From a virus (taxonomy: Duplodnaviria > Heunggongvirae > Uroviricota > Caudoviricetes), in IMG/VR virus record IMGVR_UViG_2711768012_000018: a stretch of 6,889 nucleotides of DNA. One strand, written 5' to 3'. Position numbers: made by a program. How positions within the stretch are numbered: the first letter of the stretch is position 1; each line of letters begins with the position of its first letter. Below, in pieces: positions 1 through 3,000 of this stretch.

Positions 1-3000
1 GAACAGGAGGGACAGCTGATAGAAACAGAAGCCACTGGAGCACCTCAAAAACACCATCATACACTAAATCAGTAAGTTGGCAGCATCACCTTTTTCTCAG
101 CTATCGTCCTCTTATTTTGCCGTTACATTTCTTTTTGCATTCTAATGATTAATTTACAATAATAATATCGGTAATTATTGAGTAATAATAAATTAATTAT
201 TGCAAATGTAATTTAATTCCATCTTCGCGTTATATTCCAATCTTTAATCTCCGCATGGAACAAGTTGCATGCGTGACTATATTAAGACGACTTATAACCA
301 CCAAAACATTTGCTTTGCAAGCAAAAACAGTGACCATTGACTCTAAGAAAATTCCGATCTATTGTTAGGGTCATCAAAGTTACTTAACAGTATTCCGAAA
401 TGAAAATACAAAGCAAGCTAATTGTCTTATTAAACATTATTATTGCATTTATATTATTTGAGCTTTTAGCTCAAAAATTTGGTTTGAGTACATTATTTTA
501 AAGCAAGATAAACAATATCGGGCACTCTAGTTTTTATAATTAACAATTAAACGTCCATAAAATGTTATTTACTTTTCTTCGCTATTGTCATATCTTAATA
601 TAGTGGCTTACGCCACTCTACTTTCATCACATTTTGTACGTTTATGTACTCGCCATGAAGCTCTTTCATGGCGATTTTTTATTCTTAATCCAAGAACATA
701 CTCCCTACCTATAGCAAAATCACTTTTTTAACAAAAGAATAACGTATTTAGGTAATCATTACGAATTTACCCTATAGGTGCTACTGGCCATTCAATATCC
801 GGTGCAGTTGATGTATCAACACGGTTCAGCAACACCCGATACTTTTTCCAAGCTTCCAGCAACAAGGTTTCTTTCTCCGTTGCGATCTCCAGATCCACAG
901 CATCCTGAAGCGGCGCTATATGCTCACTGGCTACCTGCATCAGGCTGTTTTTTGTTTCTTCCGCCTCCCGGATCCGGAACAGTTTTTCTGCTTCCGTATC
1001 CTTCACCCAGGCTGTGCCGTTCCACTTCTGAAACTCCCCTTCCGGGGATAACCAGGTGACATTTTCCGGTAATGAGCCGAGTTCAGAAATAAATAACGCG
1101 TCGCCGGAAGCCACGTCATAAACCGTTTTACCCCGATGATCTTCAACGAGATGCCACGATGACTCATCACTGTTGAAAACAGCCACGAAACCAGCCGGAA
1201 TATCTGGCGGTGCAATATCGGTACTGTTTGCAGGCAGACCTGTATGAGGCGGAATATATGCGTCACCTTCACCAATAAATTCATTAGTTCCGGCCAGCAG
1301 GTTATAAATTTTTATGGTCCGTGCTTGTTCACTCATTCTGAATGCCATTATGCGAGCCTCACAATATAGTTAAATGCGATGTTTTTGACGGTGTTTTCCG
1401 CGTTACCAGCAGCGTTAACGGTGATGGTGTGTCCATGTGAACCAATCGCAACAGAGTGCGTATGAGCACCAATACCGACAGTATGCGCGTGTGCACCCGC
1501 AGATGCTGCTGTGCCGGACAGTGAGTGTGTATGGTTTCCTTCTGAAGATGATTTACCTACCCATTGGGAGGTGCCACTGGTTAATGAGCCACTGATACCA
1601 ACCTGATTAGTCCCGCTAACTTGAGTACTCCCTGCCGGAAACATTCCAGTAGGTTGACTCCCGCTATTCGTTCTGGGCCCAGTCTGACTATGTTGGTGGG
1701 CCCCAGCTGAACTTGTAGAGCCGCTCAGACTGTGCGTATGCGCCCCGGTGTTATTCGTGGATTTAGTGCCGTAATCAAACGACGATGTGGTTTTCGTCCC
1801 CAAATCCGTACTGGATGCGCTGGCGCTGTGGGTGTGCGATTTAATGCCATCCTGTTCCTGAGACAATACGGCACGACCACTGGCGGGCTTGCCCTTAATC
1901 GTCCAGCCACGCATATCAGGGATCACGCCTGACGGATAAGCGGCTGCAAGTTTCGGGTAAGCAGATTTGTCAAAAGTCTGCCCCTGCATCAGGGCATAAC
2001 CAGACGGAACGGTATCTGATGGCCACGGGATTGGTGCACCGACTGGATAAAACTCTGCAGGAGGATGAGCCGAGGTGTAAAGCTGCGCCCACGGCGACCA
2101 GTTTGCGTCGGTCGTATCCCGTCGTGAACGAATAAATGCCGGAGCATGAGCACCGCTTGTACCACTCCAGCCGATGAGTAACTCACCTTCGCCAACGGCT
2201 GTCATCCCTTTCAGGTGAATGATATTTCCATACGCTGTTGGATATCCGTTGTTATACACCTCGTATAACTCAAGACCTGCTGCCCCCTGCGTATTGTCTG
2301 TCAGCGCGGCTACCCGACCTTTTGAAGCCAGATTAACTGATGATACTGCTGTTCCACCTGACGGTAGCGCCCCGATCTCTGATGCCGTTGGCTTATTTCT
2401 GGAGTTATAGTCCCTTCGCCAGCCAGGTGAATAATCTGTTCCGTGATTAATATAGGTAAACTGGGCGTTGGTTGTTCCGCCACCGCTGGATGTGGTCGGA
2501 GTGGTAATGCGGATCGTCATCGCTGACTTTATCCCCATTACTTCAATGACAGCTCCGGCGAGATGAATATTACCGCAGCCAGTATCAGTAATGATTTTAT
2601 TATTGCCATAAGACCAGGAACCCTTGCACATCCAGTATGGATGGTTAAATGCTCCCTGAGAATCCAGCCACTCGATAAACTGTGCAGTCGTCCAGTTTCC
2701 TGTTGTTGTGCTTACTGACCCACCGAAGGCACGGCAGGCACCAATATTTTTCGTAAAGGTGTCTTTGCCAGGGATATCCGCACCGTTCTGATCTTTCTGC
2801 AGACGTTTCTCAGCATTGTCATTGGCTGCTTTTACTGCCTTTGGCGTTGCCGCCAGCGTTTCAGACGTGCTGTTGGTCGCGCTGCTTAGCTGGATTATCC
2901 CTTTCTGTGCTGTCGTTGCATCCTGTGCGGTGTATTTCCCGTTAGCCAGGTCATACGCGGCCTTAACGGCTTTTGGCGNNNNNNNNNNNNNNNNNNNNNN

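What the first reader, a model, noticed from the sequence alone, without database searches (positions are those of the whole stretch)
91..766. AT-rich islet between tfa and IS1 with a plus-strand terminator, promoter-like hexamers and a 33-codon hydrophobic ORF
Seen: G+C drops to roughly 20% immediately after the tfa stop and stays low until the IS1 end at 90. A strong intrinsic terminator (9-bp stem, T6) sits at 651-683 on the plus strand, pointing at tfa, which implies a plus-strand transcript ending there. TTGACT (337-342), a 17-nt spacer and TATTGT (360-365) form a plausible sigma70-like promoter. ATG 400..TAA 501 encodes MKIQSKLIVLLNIIIAFILFELLAQKFGLSTLF, a single predicted transmembrane helix. 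Inference: this could be a small membrane peptide or sRNA cargo module at the usual moron position distal to tfa (where lambda carries its b region). Caveat: AT-rich DNA yields promoter-like hexamers and hydrophobic short ORFs by chance, and there is no convincing Shine-Dalgarno before the ATG.
Basis: partly seen in the sequence, partly recalled or inferred. Interest (0 to 1): 0.5.

Follow-up and report, generated by a model that had tools for sequence, protein, structure and literature searches.

The report
Unannotated YncL-like small membrane protein moron
The AT-rich stretch after the phage tail-fibre assembly gene holds a real but unannotated 33-codon gene for a small membrane peptide related to the E. 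coli stress protein YncL, with a promoter-like site and a strong terminator, carried by lambda-like prophages in about 15% of complete E. coli genomes.

Summary
ORF length and promoter hexamers alone are not above chance; 74% of shuffles give an ORF of 33 or more codons. Comparative evidence shows the ORF is a gene. It is intact with 33 codons in all full-length copies (40 distinct versions of the region, one truncated before the ORF), down to a ~79%-identical lineage. There it shows 18 substitutions at codon positions 7/1/10, dN/dS about 0.09 and Monte Carlo P about 5e-5. Every other small ORF breaks or changes residues freely. The peptide is a diverged homologue of YncL (NCBIfam NF000537 E=1.3e-5, 25 bits against a cutoff of 35; 11/28 identical; shuffle P<=1e-5). 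YncL is a validated 31-aa membrane protein whose production depolarises the membrane. Promoter+ORF and a highly conserved 3' hairpin/terminator element occur in the same number of genomes (827 of 5,426 each). The module always lies directly after tfa, with at least 6 left-flank and 3 right-flank classes: a moron. PGAP never annotated it in the hits examined. Transcription, translation (no Shine-Dalgarno) and function are inferred. The 3' element may be a separate or 3'-UTR-derived sRNA, but it shows no covariation and no Rfam match. Verdict: new member of a known kind, moderate interest.

The parts
1..90 (-). End of an IS1 element (context, not part of the module). It abuts the islet directly. 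Other genomes have IS1 73 bp further away, or no IS1.
   Evidence: Identical to L002 5838-5927, inside or next to the annotated IS1A transposase. All 40 listed hits align in two pieces spanning 374 nt instead of 301.
91..242 (.). Very AT-rich left part of the islet. It is shared only with some prophage classes and lies outside the conserved module.
   Evidence: Alignment A1: homology between classes starts at about window 196 (042/Sx181 type) or 243 (sitABCD type). G+C is 25-27%.
243..766 (+). Conserved tfa-distal module (moron): upstream block, promoter, leader, ORF, 3' UTR, terminator and the spacer to tfa.
   Evidence: Shared by all lineages. Found in 830-831 of 5,426 complete E. coli genomes, with no feature annotated under it in any hit examined. 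At least 6 left-flank and 3 right-flank classes.
263..287 (.). Conserved upstream block that is an inverted copy of 593-617 (perfect 12-nt core 276-287 / 593-604). Role unknown.
   Evidence: the repeat finder pair I2, 19/25 complementary. The block is nearly invariant in A1. The core match is not kept in the L007/L030 lineage.
337..365 (+). Sigma-70-like promoter: -35 TTGACT (337-342), 17-nt spacer, -10 TATTGT (360-365). Predicted start is near 372.
   Evidence: Consensus scan, 9/12. The -35 is kept in all but one variant, and the -10 is TATTGT or TATCGT. This region is 10-14% diverged in L007/L030 against 26-27% in the adjacent segments. Use as a promoter is inferred.
372..399 (+). Short A/U-rich leader without a Shine-Dalgarno sequence.
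   Evidence: Anti-SD duplex dG is 0.1 kcal/mol in both deep lineages. An in-frame stop at 385-387 fixes ATG 400 as the only possible start (sequence).
400..501 (+). 33-codon gene for a YncL-like single-pass membrane peptide, MKIQSKLIVLLNIIIAFILFELLAQKFGLSTLF.
   Evidence: Intact in every full-length copy. dN/dS 0.09, codon positions 7/1/10, Monte Carlo P 5e-5. NCBIfam YncL E=1.3e-5. BLASTP against K-12 YncL gives 11/28 identical, E=2e-7. Shuffle P<=1e-5.
502..601 (+). Poorly conserved 3' UTR spacer. 578-588 can pair with the leader 387-399 (weak support).
   Evidence: 22-37% diverged in L007/L030, with indels. The long-range helix has one compensatory pair but two pairs broken in the same lineage.
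602..683 (+). Highly conserved 3' element: hairpin 602-617, single-stranded 618-635, small hairpin 636-649, terminator stem 650-674 and U-run 675-683. It is the transcript's 3' end and possibly an sRNA.
   Evidence: Only 6% diverged where the neighbouring segments are 20-37% (Fisher P=3e-6). Fold z=-6.9. Changes fall only in loops, G-U-compatible positions and the U-run, with 0 compensatory pairs. Found in the same number of genomes as the ORF, 827 each.
684..766 (.). Variable spacer between the terminator and the tfa stop codon.
   Evidence: 33-35% diverged in L007, L030 and L039.
767..1348 (-). tfa (tail fibre assembly protein), convergent with the module (context).
   Evidence: ORF list. 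Annotated as tail fiber assembly protein in L001 and L002.

Best explanation
Window ~243-766 is a prophage 'moron': a self-contained, AT-rich transcription unit sitting just past the last late gene (tfa) of a lambdoid prophage and pointing towards it. A sigma-70-type promoter (337-365) would start a transcript of about 310 nt near 372. That transcript carries a 33-codon gene (400-501) and ends at a strong intrinsic terminator (650-683), which also stops it from running antisense into tfa. The product is a single-pass inner-membrane peptide and a diverged paralogue of E. coli YncL. It has a short basic N-terminus (K2, K6), a transmembrane helix with a conserved polar Asn12, and a [KR]-F-G motif after the helix. 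By analogy with YncL, it probably inserts into the inner membrane of the lysogen and, when made in quantity, lowers membrane potential and pushes the cell towards a low-activity, stress-tolerant state. The missing Shine-Dalgarno suggests translation is kept low. Shown here: the sequence features, the coding signature, the homology to YncL, the modular distribution, and the conservation of the 3' element. Inferred: promoter use, transcript ends, translation, membrane insertion, and the physiological effect.
For: Coding: the ORF is intact with 33 codons in every full-length copy recovered (57 copies, 40 distinct versions of the region, one truncated before the ORF), including the ~79%-identical lineage, where a 5-nt indel lies immediately after the stop. 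Window against L007 gives 18 substitutions at codon positions 7/1/10, dN/dS 0.09 and P=5e-5 for an intact ORF with 5 or fewer residue changes. In the L008 lineage, 6 substitutions give 1 residue change. All eight other small ORFs in the islet are broken in some lineage or change a residue with most substitutions. Two annotation pipelines chose two different ORFs, both non-conserved. Homology: NCBIfam NF000537 YncL, E=1.3e-5, model positions 1-28 of 30. BLASTP gives 39% identity and 64% positives, collinear and ungapped from Met1. P<=1e-5 against composition- and architecture-preserving shuffles. Module behaviour: always directly after tfa, at the attLambda/bio, ydfJ, icd/sitABCD and other sites. 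Present in three sequenced phages, in four records. Promoter+ORF and the 3' element each match 827 genomes, 934 and 933 places, none on plasmids. Several flank classes on both sides. G+C is 29% against 51%. Terminator. Function of the family: YncL production depolarises the membrane, condenses the nucleoid and induces the phage-shock response (PMC12542507). The Salmonella yncL lies in a short sigmaS-dependent 'coding sRNA', STnc1110 (PMC5437024).
Against: There is no expression evidence of any kind. The promoter is only a 9/12 consensus match in DNA where such matches are not enriched. There is no Shine-Dalgarno in any lineage, unlike K-12 yncL. The YncL HMM score (25 bits) is below the curated cutoff (35), against 68.6 bits for K-12 YncL, so functional transfer is by analogy. 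Deep diversity is small (three lineages), so the dN/dS result rests mainly on one deep comparison. A frameshift allele exists on two short contigs. The published YncL phenotype comes from plasmid expression and may not reflect native levels.
Confidence: 0.72

Rival explanations
1. The main functional product is RNA. The conserved 3' element (about 602-683) is a trans-acting, probably Hfq-binding sRNA, either made from its own weak promoter near 568-601 or cut from the 3' UTR of the peptide mRNA. This would make the locus a dual-function (coding plus regulatory) unit. It is compatible with the peptide being real.
For: It is the best-conserved segment: 6% diverged where neighbouring segments are 20-37% (Fisher P=3e-6). 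Its layout is that of an sRNA: a 5' hairpin, an almost invariant single-stranded stretch (one polymorphic site in 618-649) and a terminator with a U-run. Fold z=-6.9. The overlapping 48-codon ORF is broken by a 1-nt indel, so the conservation is not from coding. 3'-UTR-derived sRNAs are well established in enterobacteria (general knowledge).
Against: There are 0 compensatory base-pair changes. No Rfam family matches at E<=1. No convincing -35/-10 pair lies upstream, and that stretch is 19-22% diverged. The contrast in conservation is seen only against one deep lineage. Against the L008 lineage the element (6%) is no better conserved than the rest (3-9%). A recombinant (L039) has its crossover inside or next to the element, so mosaic exchange could produce the pattern. 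A terminator alone needs some conservation. No target was identified, and pairing with its own initiation region is unconvincing.
Confidence: 0.25
2. The unit is a type I toxin-antitoxin-like or abortive-infection module. The hydrophobic peptide is a membrane-damaging toxin kept silent at the RNA level (no Shine-Dalgarno, leader sequestered by the 3' UTR, or an antisense RNA) and released under stress or phage attack.
For: The peptide's size and hydrophobicity resemble Hok, TisB, ShoB and Zor toxins. YncL and YohP production depolarises the membrane and lowers viability (PMC12542507). YncL was scored as an RseP substrate in vivo in the same screen as Hok toxins, though its cleavage was not detected in vitro (PMC10470546). 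The Shine-Dalgarno is absent. A possible leader/3'-UTR helix (387-399 with 578-588) has one compensatory pair. A minus-strand promoter-like site at 591-562 could give an antisense RNA.
Against: No conserved antisense promoter-terminator pair was found, and the minus-strand hairpin at 309-325 is not kept in L007 (reading of A1). The long-range helix loses two pairs in L007/L030, and a further leader/3'-UTR contact read by eye from the single-sequence fold (GAAAA 402-406 with UUUUC 573-577) would be lost through the C577G change carried by the commonest class. There are no PADLOC, Pfam or NCBIfam toxin matches. YncL is not classed as a TA toxin and no antitoxin is known for it.
Confidence: 0.12
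3. The islet is non-functional AT-rich filler or a recombination linker at the end of the late operon. The ORF, promoter hexamers and hairpin are by-products of composition, and the apparent conservation reflects recent spread.
For: ORFs of this length and promoter-like hexamers are expected by chance in this composition. Most copies are more than 95% identical, so much of the 'conservation' is recent common ancestry. PGAP annotated nothing under any of the hits examined. Gene callers almost never call the ORF: 2 unnamed entries among 15 billion proteins.
Against: The substitution pattern within the ORF (dN/dS 0.09, P=5e-5) does not depend on how recently the copies spread. The independent homology to a validated protein, YncL, has P<=1e-5. 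The control ORFs do not behave this way. The terminator is stronger than chance.
Confidence: 0.05

Closest known systems
YncL (b4598) of E. coli K-12, NCBIfam NF000537 'stress response membrane protein YncL'
   Same: A single-pass peptide of about 30 aa. It aligns collinearly from Met1, with shared S5, N12, A16, L19-F20, L22 and [KR]26-F27-G28. The HMM match is significant. It is encoded on a short monocistronic unit with its own terminator.
   Different: Only 39% identical, and below the family's curated cutoff (25 against 35 bits; K-12 YncL scores 68.6). It has two extra C-terminal residues. It is carried on prophages after tfa instead of the core-genome site next to ortT. It has no Shine-Dalgarno, where yncL has AAGGUGG. 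It has a long conserved 3' UTR. Regulation and function are untested.
STnc1110 / yncL 'coding sRNA' of Salmonella (PMC5437024)
   Same: A short transcript that looks like an sRNA but encodes a YncL-type peptide. This is a precedent for reading the ~310-nt unit as a coding small RNA.
   Different: It is a chromosomal orthologue of yncL and sigmaS-dependent. No DNA or Rfam similarity to the islet was found.
Lambdoid phage morons, such as lambda bor and lom, or cor of phi80/HK022/N15 located after the tail genes (general knowledge; PMC3594210 for the concept)
   Same: An independent unit with a promoter-like site and a terminator. Its composition differs from that of the flanking phage genes. It sits at the distal end of the tail region and is present or absent among related phages.
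   Different: The product is a 33-aa peptide unrelated to Bor, Lom or Cor. No exclusion or virulence phenotype is known.
Type I toxins and other depolarising small membrane proteins (Hok, TisB, ShoB, ZorO; YohP)
   Same: A small hydrophobic single-helix peptide. The family member YncL depolarises the membrane when produced (PMC12542507).
   Different: There is no sequence match to those families, and no antitoxin RNA was identified.

Membership tests
YncL family (NCBIfam NF000537, equivalog) | HMM score at or above the curated cutoff (35 bits) | tested here: not met
   25.0 bits (window allele) and 23.5 bits (L007 allele), E=1.3e-5 and 3.7e-5. K-12 YncL scores 68.6 bits. It is therefore not an equivalog (orthologue) of YncL.
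YncL family (homology in the broad sense) | Statistically significant, collinear sequence similarity to YncL | tested here: met
   BLASTP gives 11/28 identical and 18/28 positive, with no gaps, starting at Met1, E=2e-7. 0 of 100,000 composition shuffles and at most 1 of 100,000 architecture-preserving shuffles reach the score.
YncL family | A peptide of about 30 aa with one hydrophobic helix, a short polar N-terminus and a basic-Phe-Gly motif after the helix | tested here: met
   Seen directly in alignment A2: invariant M1, S5, L10, N12, A16, L19, F20, L22, F27 and G28.
YncL family | Chromosomal position next to ortT/patD (orthologue synteny) | tested here: not met
   K-12 yncL lies between patD and ortT. 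The window gene lies after tfa in prophages.
YncL family | Inner-membrane localisation and membrane depolarisation on production | not testable with these tools
   Known for YncL only (PMC12542507).
Phage moron | Own terminator, and composition unlike the neighbouring phage genes | tested here: met
   Terminator at 650-683. G+C is 29.4% against 50.8%.
Phage moron | Own promoter active in the lysogen | tested here: inconclusive
   A 9/12 consensus match that is conserved across lineages. Such matches are not enriched in the region, and there are no expression data.
Phage moron | A discrete unit present or absent among related phages, with varying neighbours | tested here: met
   Found in 830-831 of 5,426 genomes and in 3 sequenced phages, in 4 records. 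6 left-flank and 3 right-flank classes. The cargo beyond it differs: a YdeO/GadX-like regulator, sitABCD, or the prophage end.
Type I toxin-antitoxin system | An antisense or complementary antitoxin RNA gene next to the toxin ORF | tested here: inconclusive
   There is only a weak minus-strand promoter-like site (591-562) and no conserved terminator. Leader/3'-UTR pairing is partly broken in one lineage. Nothing positive was found.
Type I toxin-antitoxin system | Match to a known toxin family | tested here: not met
   No Pfam, PADLOC or NCBIfam toxin match at E<=10 or E<=1.
Hfq-type trans-acting sRNA (for the 3' element, 602-683) | An intrinsic terminator hairpin with a 3' U-run, preceded by a conserved single-stranded region | tested here: met
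   The U-run is T6 in the window, and T5 or TTTCTT in other alleles.
Hfq-type trans-acting sRNA (for the 3' element, 602-683) | Evolutionary support for the structure (compensatory changes), or membership of a curated RNA family | tested here: not met
   0 of 20 pairs show a compensatory change. No Rfam match at E<=1.
Hfq-type trans-acting sRNA (for the 3' element, 602-683) | A stable short RNA species, Hfq binding, and defined targets | not testable with these tools
   Needs a Northern blot, Term-seq, or RIL-seq/CLIP.

The most novel reading that the evidence does not exclude
The unit is a dual-function prophage RNA. The ~310-nt transcript encodes a YncL-like membrane-depolarising peptide whose translation is deliberately weak, and its nearly invariant 3' end (602-683) is released as, or acts as, a trans-acting sRNA on host or phage targets. 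About 15% of E. coli strains would then carry an unrecognised prophage regulator that links membrane energetics (dormancy, or exclusion of superinfecting phage) with post-transcriptional control.
Probability: 0.2. Interest if true: 0.6.

Novelty: new member of a known kind. Interest (0 to 1): 0.42.

Why it matters
A conserved gene present in roughly one in seven complete E. coli genomes, sometimes in several copies and also in active temperate phages, was missed by standard annotation in every hit examined. Its only relative, YncL, is one of the few small membrane proteins with a reported cellular effect: membrane depolarisation, nucleoid condensation and the phage-shock response. A prophage-borne paralogue suggests that temperate phages can supply their hosts with an extra dose, or a differently regulated version, of this stress or dormancy peptide. 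This is a simple, testable case of lysogenic conversion by a microprotein. It also shows that a diverged paralogue scoring below an equivalog cutoff can go unannotated, and it provides a candidate 3'-UTR sRNA to test.

Tried and rejected
(1) Rfam with permissive thresholds on window 1-1400, on the uninterrupted islet in L001 and on K-12 yncL found nothing in the islet. (2) Pfam, PHROGs and PADLOC on the peptide gave no usable match. The exhaustive search of 1.84 billion representatives found only the peptide itself and one frameshift allele. (4) Species-representative genomes gave no match with a 25-mer from the 3' element or with YncL-family peptide patterns, so no copies outside E. coli prophages were obtained. 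The peptide-pattern scan of viral contigs returned only the same close set. (5) A full-text search for the DNA, RNA and peptide strings found no publication. Topical searches found no description of an sRNA or small protein after tfa. (6) Other small ORFs, including the two that phage annotators had called (255-368 in PhiR70_1, and a 55-codon ORF spanning the IS1 site in ev099), were rejected because they are broken or non-conserved. (7) The overlapping ORF 585-731 was rejected because of a 1-nt indel in the T-run. (8) Pairing of the 3' element with the ORF's initiation region gave only a loop-ridden duplex and is not convincing. (9) Long-range leader/3'-UTR helix: one compensatory pair but two broken, left as weak. 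(10) The in-ORF hairpin at 457-475, flagged as terminator-like by the scan, is not conserved in L007 and lies inside coding sequence. (11) Inverted repeat 263-287 / 593-617: noted, but its core is not kept in L007/L030, so it is unresolved. (12) A search for a genome with the exact IS1 junction found none among the listed hits.
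Full report
SETTING. The window is the tail end of a lambdoid prophage. J, lom, stf and tfa lie on the minus strand, with tfa at 767-1348. Bases 1-90 are the end of an IS1 element: they are identical to part of the annotated IS1A copy in strain 2009C-3133. 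In genomes without the IS1 (L001, strain TUM9757), the unannotated AT-rich DNA after tfa is about 1.5 kb long. It runs to a YdeO/GadX-like AraC-family regulator gene, then IS fragments, then ybhB-bioA. That places the prophage at the attLambda site, and the islet corresponds to the start of lambda's b region.

CHECK OF THE OBSERVATION.
- The terminator has its stem at 650-674 and T6 at 675-680. The scan reports 11 pairs; RNAfold gives 10 bp with a 5-nt loop.
- TTGACT, 17 nt, TATTGT lies at 337-365.
- The 33-codon ORF is at 400-501.
- There is no Shine-Dalgarno: the anti-SD duplex dG is 0.1 kcal/mol, against -7.2 for K-12 yncL.
- The G+C figure was overstated. The islet averages 29.4% against 50.8% in tfa/stf. 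Only 101-250 and 400-500 are near 20-22%, and 603-683 is 39.5%.
On a single sequence, only the terminator exceeds chance. Its hairpin is stronger than the best hairpin in 98.7% of dinucleotide shuffles, and the 93-nt 3' segment folds with z = -6.9. Promoter-like sites are not enriched (6 found, 4.4 +/- 2.1 expected). An ATG-ORF of 33 or more codons appears in 74% of shuffles.

DISTRIBUTION. The 676-bp islet matches 830-831 of 5,426 complete E. coli genomes, with up to four copies per genome and none on plasmids. No feature was annotated under it in any listed hit. It is also in the sequenced phages mEp332, PhiR70_1 and ev099. It always lies immediately after the tfa stop, but at different chromosomal sites and with different DNA beyond it:
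- attLambda/bio, with the AraC-type regulator (L001, L002);
- the ydfJ site in strain 042 (L006);
- the icd site, with sitABCD (L008);
- another sitABCD-linked prophage (L007).
The shared core is about window 243-766. Across 57 fetched copies I found six classes of left flank and three of right flank. The promoter-plus-ORF segment and the 3' element, searched separately, each match 827 genomes, at 934 and 933 places. The unit therefore travels as one module with variable neighbours, which is the behaviour of a moron.

THE ORF IS A GENE. I recovered 57 copies, giving 40 distinct versions of the 690-nt region. The ORF is intact with 33 codons in every full-length copy. That includes the deepest lineage (L007/L030, about 79% identical), where a 5-nt indel sits directly after the stop codon. 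One script flagged that lineage as broken, but this was an alignment artefact, and reading the raw sequences confirmed the ORF.
- Between the window and L007 there are 18 substitutions, at codon positions 7/1/10. Eleven are synonymous and seven non-synonymous by Nei-Gojobori counting (five residues differ), giving dN/dS of about 0.09.
- Placing the same substitutions at random gives an intact ORF with five or fewer residue changes in 5 of 100,000 trials.
- In the L008 lineage, six substitutions cause one residue change.
- The other two frames are full of stops.
- The eight other small ORFs in the islet are either broken in some lineage or change a residue with most substitutions.
- An in-frame stop at 385-387 leaves ATG 400 as the only possible start.
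- The one frame-breaking allele found is the loss of one A in the A-run at codons 25-26. It occurs on two short read-assembled contigs.

WHAT THE PEPTIDE IS. Pfam, PHROGs and PADLOC give nothing. NCBIfam gives a single match: NF000537, 'stress response membrane protein YncL', at E = 1.3e-5 and 25 bits, covering model positions 1-28 of 30. The curated cutoff is 35 bits, which would explain why PGAP does not call the gene. K-12 YncL itself scores 68.6 bits. A direct comparison with K-12 YncL (b4598) gives 11/28 identities and 18/28 positives, with no gaps, starting at Met1. The invariant residues are M1, S5, L10, N12, A16, L19, F20, L22, F27 and G28. None of 100,000 composition-preserving shuffles, and at most 1 of 100,000 shuffles that keep the N-tail/helix/C-tail architecture, reaches the observed score. 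The similarity is therefore homology, not just two hydrophobic helices resembling each other. The peptide is a diverged paralogue and not the orthologue: the score is below the cutoff, the genomic place differs (K-12 yncL lies between patD and ortT), and yncL has a strong Shine-Dalgarno that this gene lacks. The exact peptide appears only twice, unnamed, among about 15 billion predicted proteins. A search of 1.84 billion cluster representatives found nothing else.

WHAT YncL DOES (literature).
- YncL is a 31-aa membrane protein. According to Hemm et al. 2010, as cited in PMC12542507, it is induced in minimal medium and by heat shock.
- It was scored as a substrate of the intramembrane protease RseP in vivo, although cleavage was not detected in vitro (PMC10470546).
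- In Salmonella, yncL sits inside a transcript first listed as the sRNA STnc1110, which was later reclassified as a sigmaS-dependent 'coding sRNA' (PMC5437024).
- An sRNA from the 3' UTR of the Rac prophage gene kilR (KilS) contacts yncL in RIL-seq data (PMC8175672).
A short, sRNA-like coding transcript therefore has precedent in this family.

THE RNA SIDE. In the deepest comparison, the divergence from the window is:
- 26-27% in 255-336 and in the leader;
- 10-14% over the promoter;
- 20% in the ORF;
- 35-37% in 502-566;
- 19-22% in 567-602;
- 6% in 603-683;
- 33-35% in 684-766.
The contrast between the 3' element and its non-coding neighbours gives Fisher P = 3e-6. The element folds into a 5' hairpin (602-617), a single-stranded stretch with one polymorphic site, a small hairpin, and the terminator. 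The variants change only loops, G-U-compatible positions and the U-run. The overlapping 48-codon ORF is destroyed by a 1-nt indel, so coding does not explain the conservation.
This looks like an sRNA or a functional 3' UTR, but I hold it loosely, for four reasons:
- None of the 20 pairs shows a compensatory change, and no Rfam family matches.
- The stretch upstream has no convincing promoter.
- Against the intermediate L008 lineage, the element is no better conserved than the rest of the module.
- L039 is a recombinant whose crossover lies in or next to the element, so mosaic exchange could create such an island.
A long-range helix pairing the leader (387-399) with 578-588 survives in the consensus fold and has one true compensatory pair (A-U to G-C at 387/588). 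However, two of its pairs break in the same lineage, so the support is only suggestive.

MECHANISM, WITH CONFIDENCE. Most likely (about 0.7): this is a moron expressed from the resident prophage. A sigma-70-type promoter at 337-365 starts a transcript of about 310 nt. Its -35 is kept in all but one variant, and its -10 is TATTGT or TATCGT, each preceded by a C. From my own knowledge, a C at -13 is typical of sigmaS-favoured promoters; I offer that as a lead only. The transcript encodes the YncL-like peptide and ends at the terminator, which also prevents antisense transcription into tfa. Conversely, antiterminated late transcription during lytic growth would read through the unit in antisense (inference). 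The peptide would insert with its basic N-terminus inside (K2 and K6 against K26; inference from the positive-inside rule). At sufficient levels it would lower membrane potential as YncL does. The missing Shine-Dalgarno suggests low basal translation. What the phage or host gains (stress tolerance or dormancy, exclusion of other phages, or something else) is unknown.
Rivals: the RNA 3' element as the main, or an additional, product (about 0.25, and compatible with the peptide); a type I toxin-like or abortive-infection module (about 0.12; no antitoxin RNA found); non-functional filler (about 0.05, contradicted).

NOVELTY AND VERDICT. The kind is known: a small membrane protein of the YncL type, carried on a phage moron. 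What is new is this member. It is a diverged, prophage-borne paralogue, unannotated in every genome hit examined, absent from the literature I could search, and present in about 15% of complete E. coli genomes. I rate it a new member of a known kind, with interest 0.42.

Noticed in passing
window 807-1005 (minus strand, inside tfa): Full-length match to Rfam RF02111 'IS009' (218 bits, E=7e-55). This candidate RNA family lies entirely within the tfa coding sequence, so the match may only reflect conservation of the tfa gene.
   Followed up: no
window 1-91, compared with L002 5838-6001: The window's IS1 end abuts the islet directly. In L002 and in all 40 listed hits, 73 bp (...GTGATTTGCCCCAGATTGGGAAAGCACGCT) separate IS1 from the same point. 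The window therefore carries either an IS1-adjacent deletion or a separate insertion. No listed complete genome has the exact junction.
   Followed up: partly
window 263-287 and 593-617: A 25-nt inverted repeat (19/25 complementary, perfect 12-nt core ACTATATTAAGA / TCTTAATATAGT) brackets the promoter and ORF. Each arm is 'TCTTAATAT' followed by a 16-nt near-palindrome. The core is not kept in the L007/L030 lineage. It could be chance, paired protein-binding sites, twin -10-like elements on opposite strands, or relic ends of an inserted unit.
   Followed up: partly
window 2979-3228: A run of 250 N (masked sequence) inside the stf side tail fibre gene. ORF calls across it are unreliable.
   Followed up: yes
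L001 5759-5810 (uninterrupted version of the islet's far side, outside the window): A tRNA/tmRNA-like 3' fragment (GGCGGAGAGAGGGGGATTTGAACCCCC...). It gives sub-threshold Rfam hits to a tmRNA 3' region and to a plastid 3'-UTR family. It is probably the remnant of an attachment site from another element, and so marks a mosaic junction in the b-region equivalent.
   Followed up: partly
L001 4428-5171 (minus strand), also in L002-L005: The cargo gene beyond the islet in the attLambda-type prophages is an AraC-family regulator closest to YdeO and GadX, the acid-resistance regulators (149 and 111 bits, far below their equivalog cutoffs). From memory, it resembles the prophage-borne Psr/PatE-type regulators described in EHEC. 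This was not checked.
   Followed up: partly
L007 473-3922 and L008 1316-4765: In two prophage classes, the DNA beyond the module carries the sitABCD iron/manganese transporter operon, so the same tfa-distal module sits next to quite different cargo.
   Followed up: no
L106 1228-1359 and L107 1118-1249: A frameshift allele of the small ORF (P0003, 43 aa, MKIQSKLIVLLNIIIAFILFELLAQKIWFEYIILKQDKQYRAL) caused by the loss of one A in the CAAAAATTT run. It is seen on two short read-assembled contigs and could be a real pseudogene allele or a homopolymer error.
   Followed up: partly
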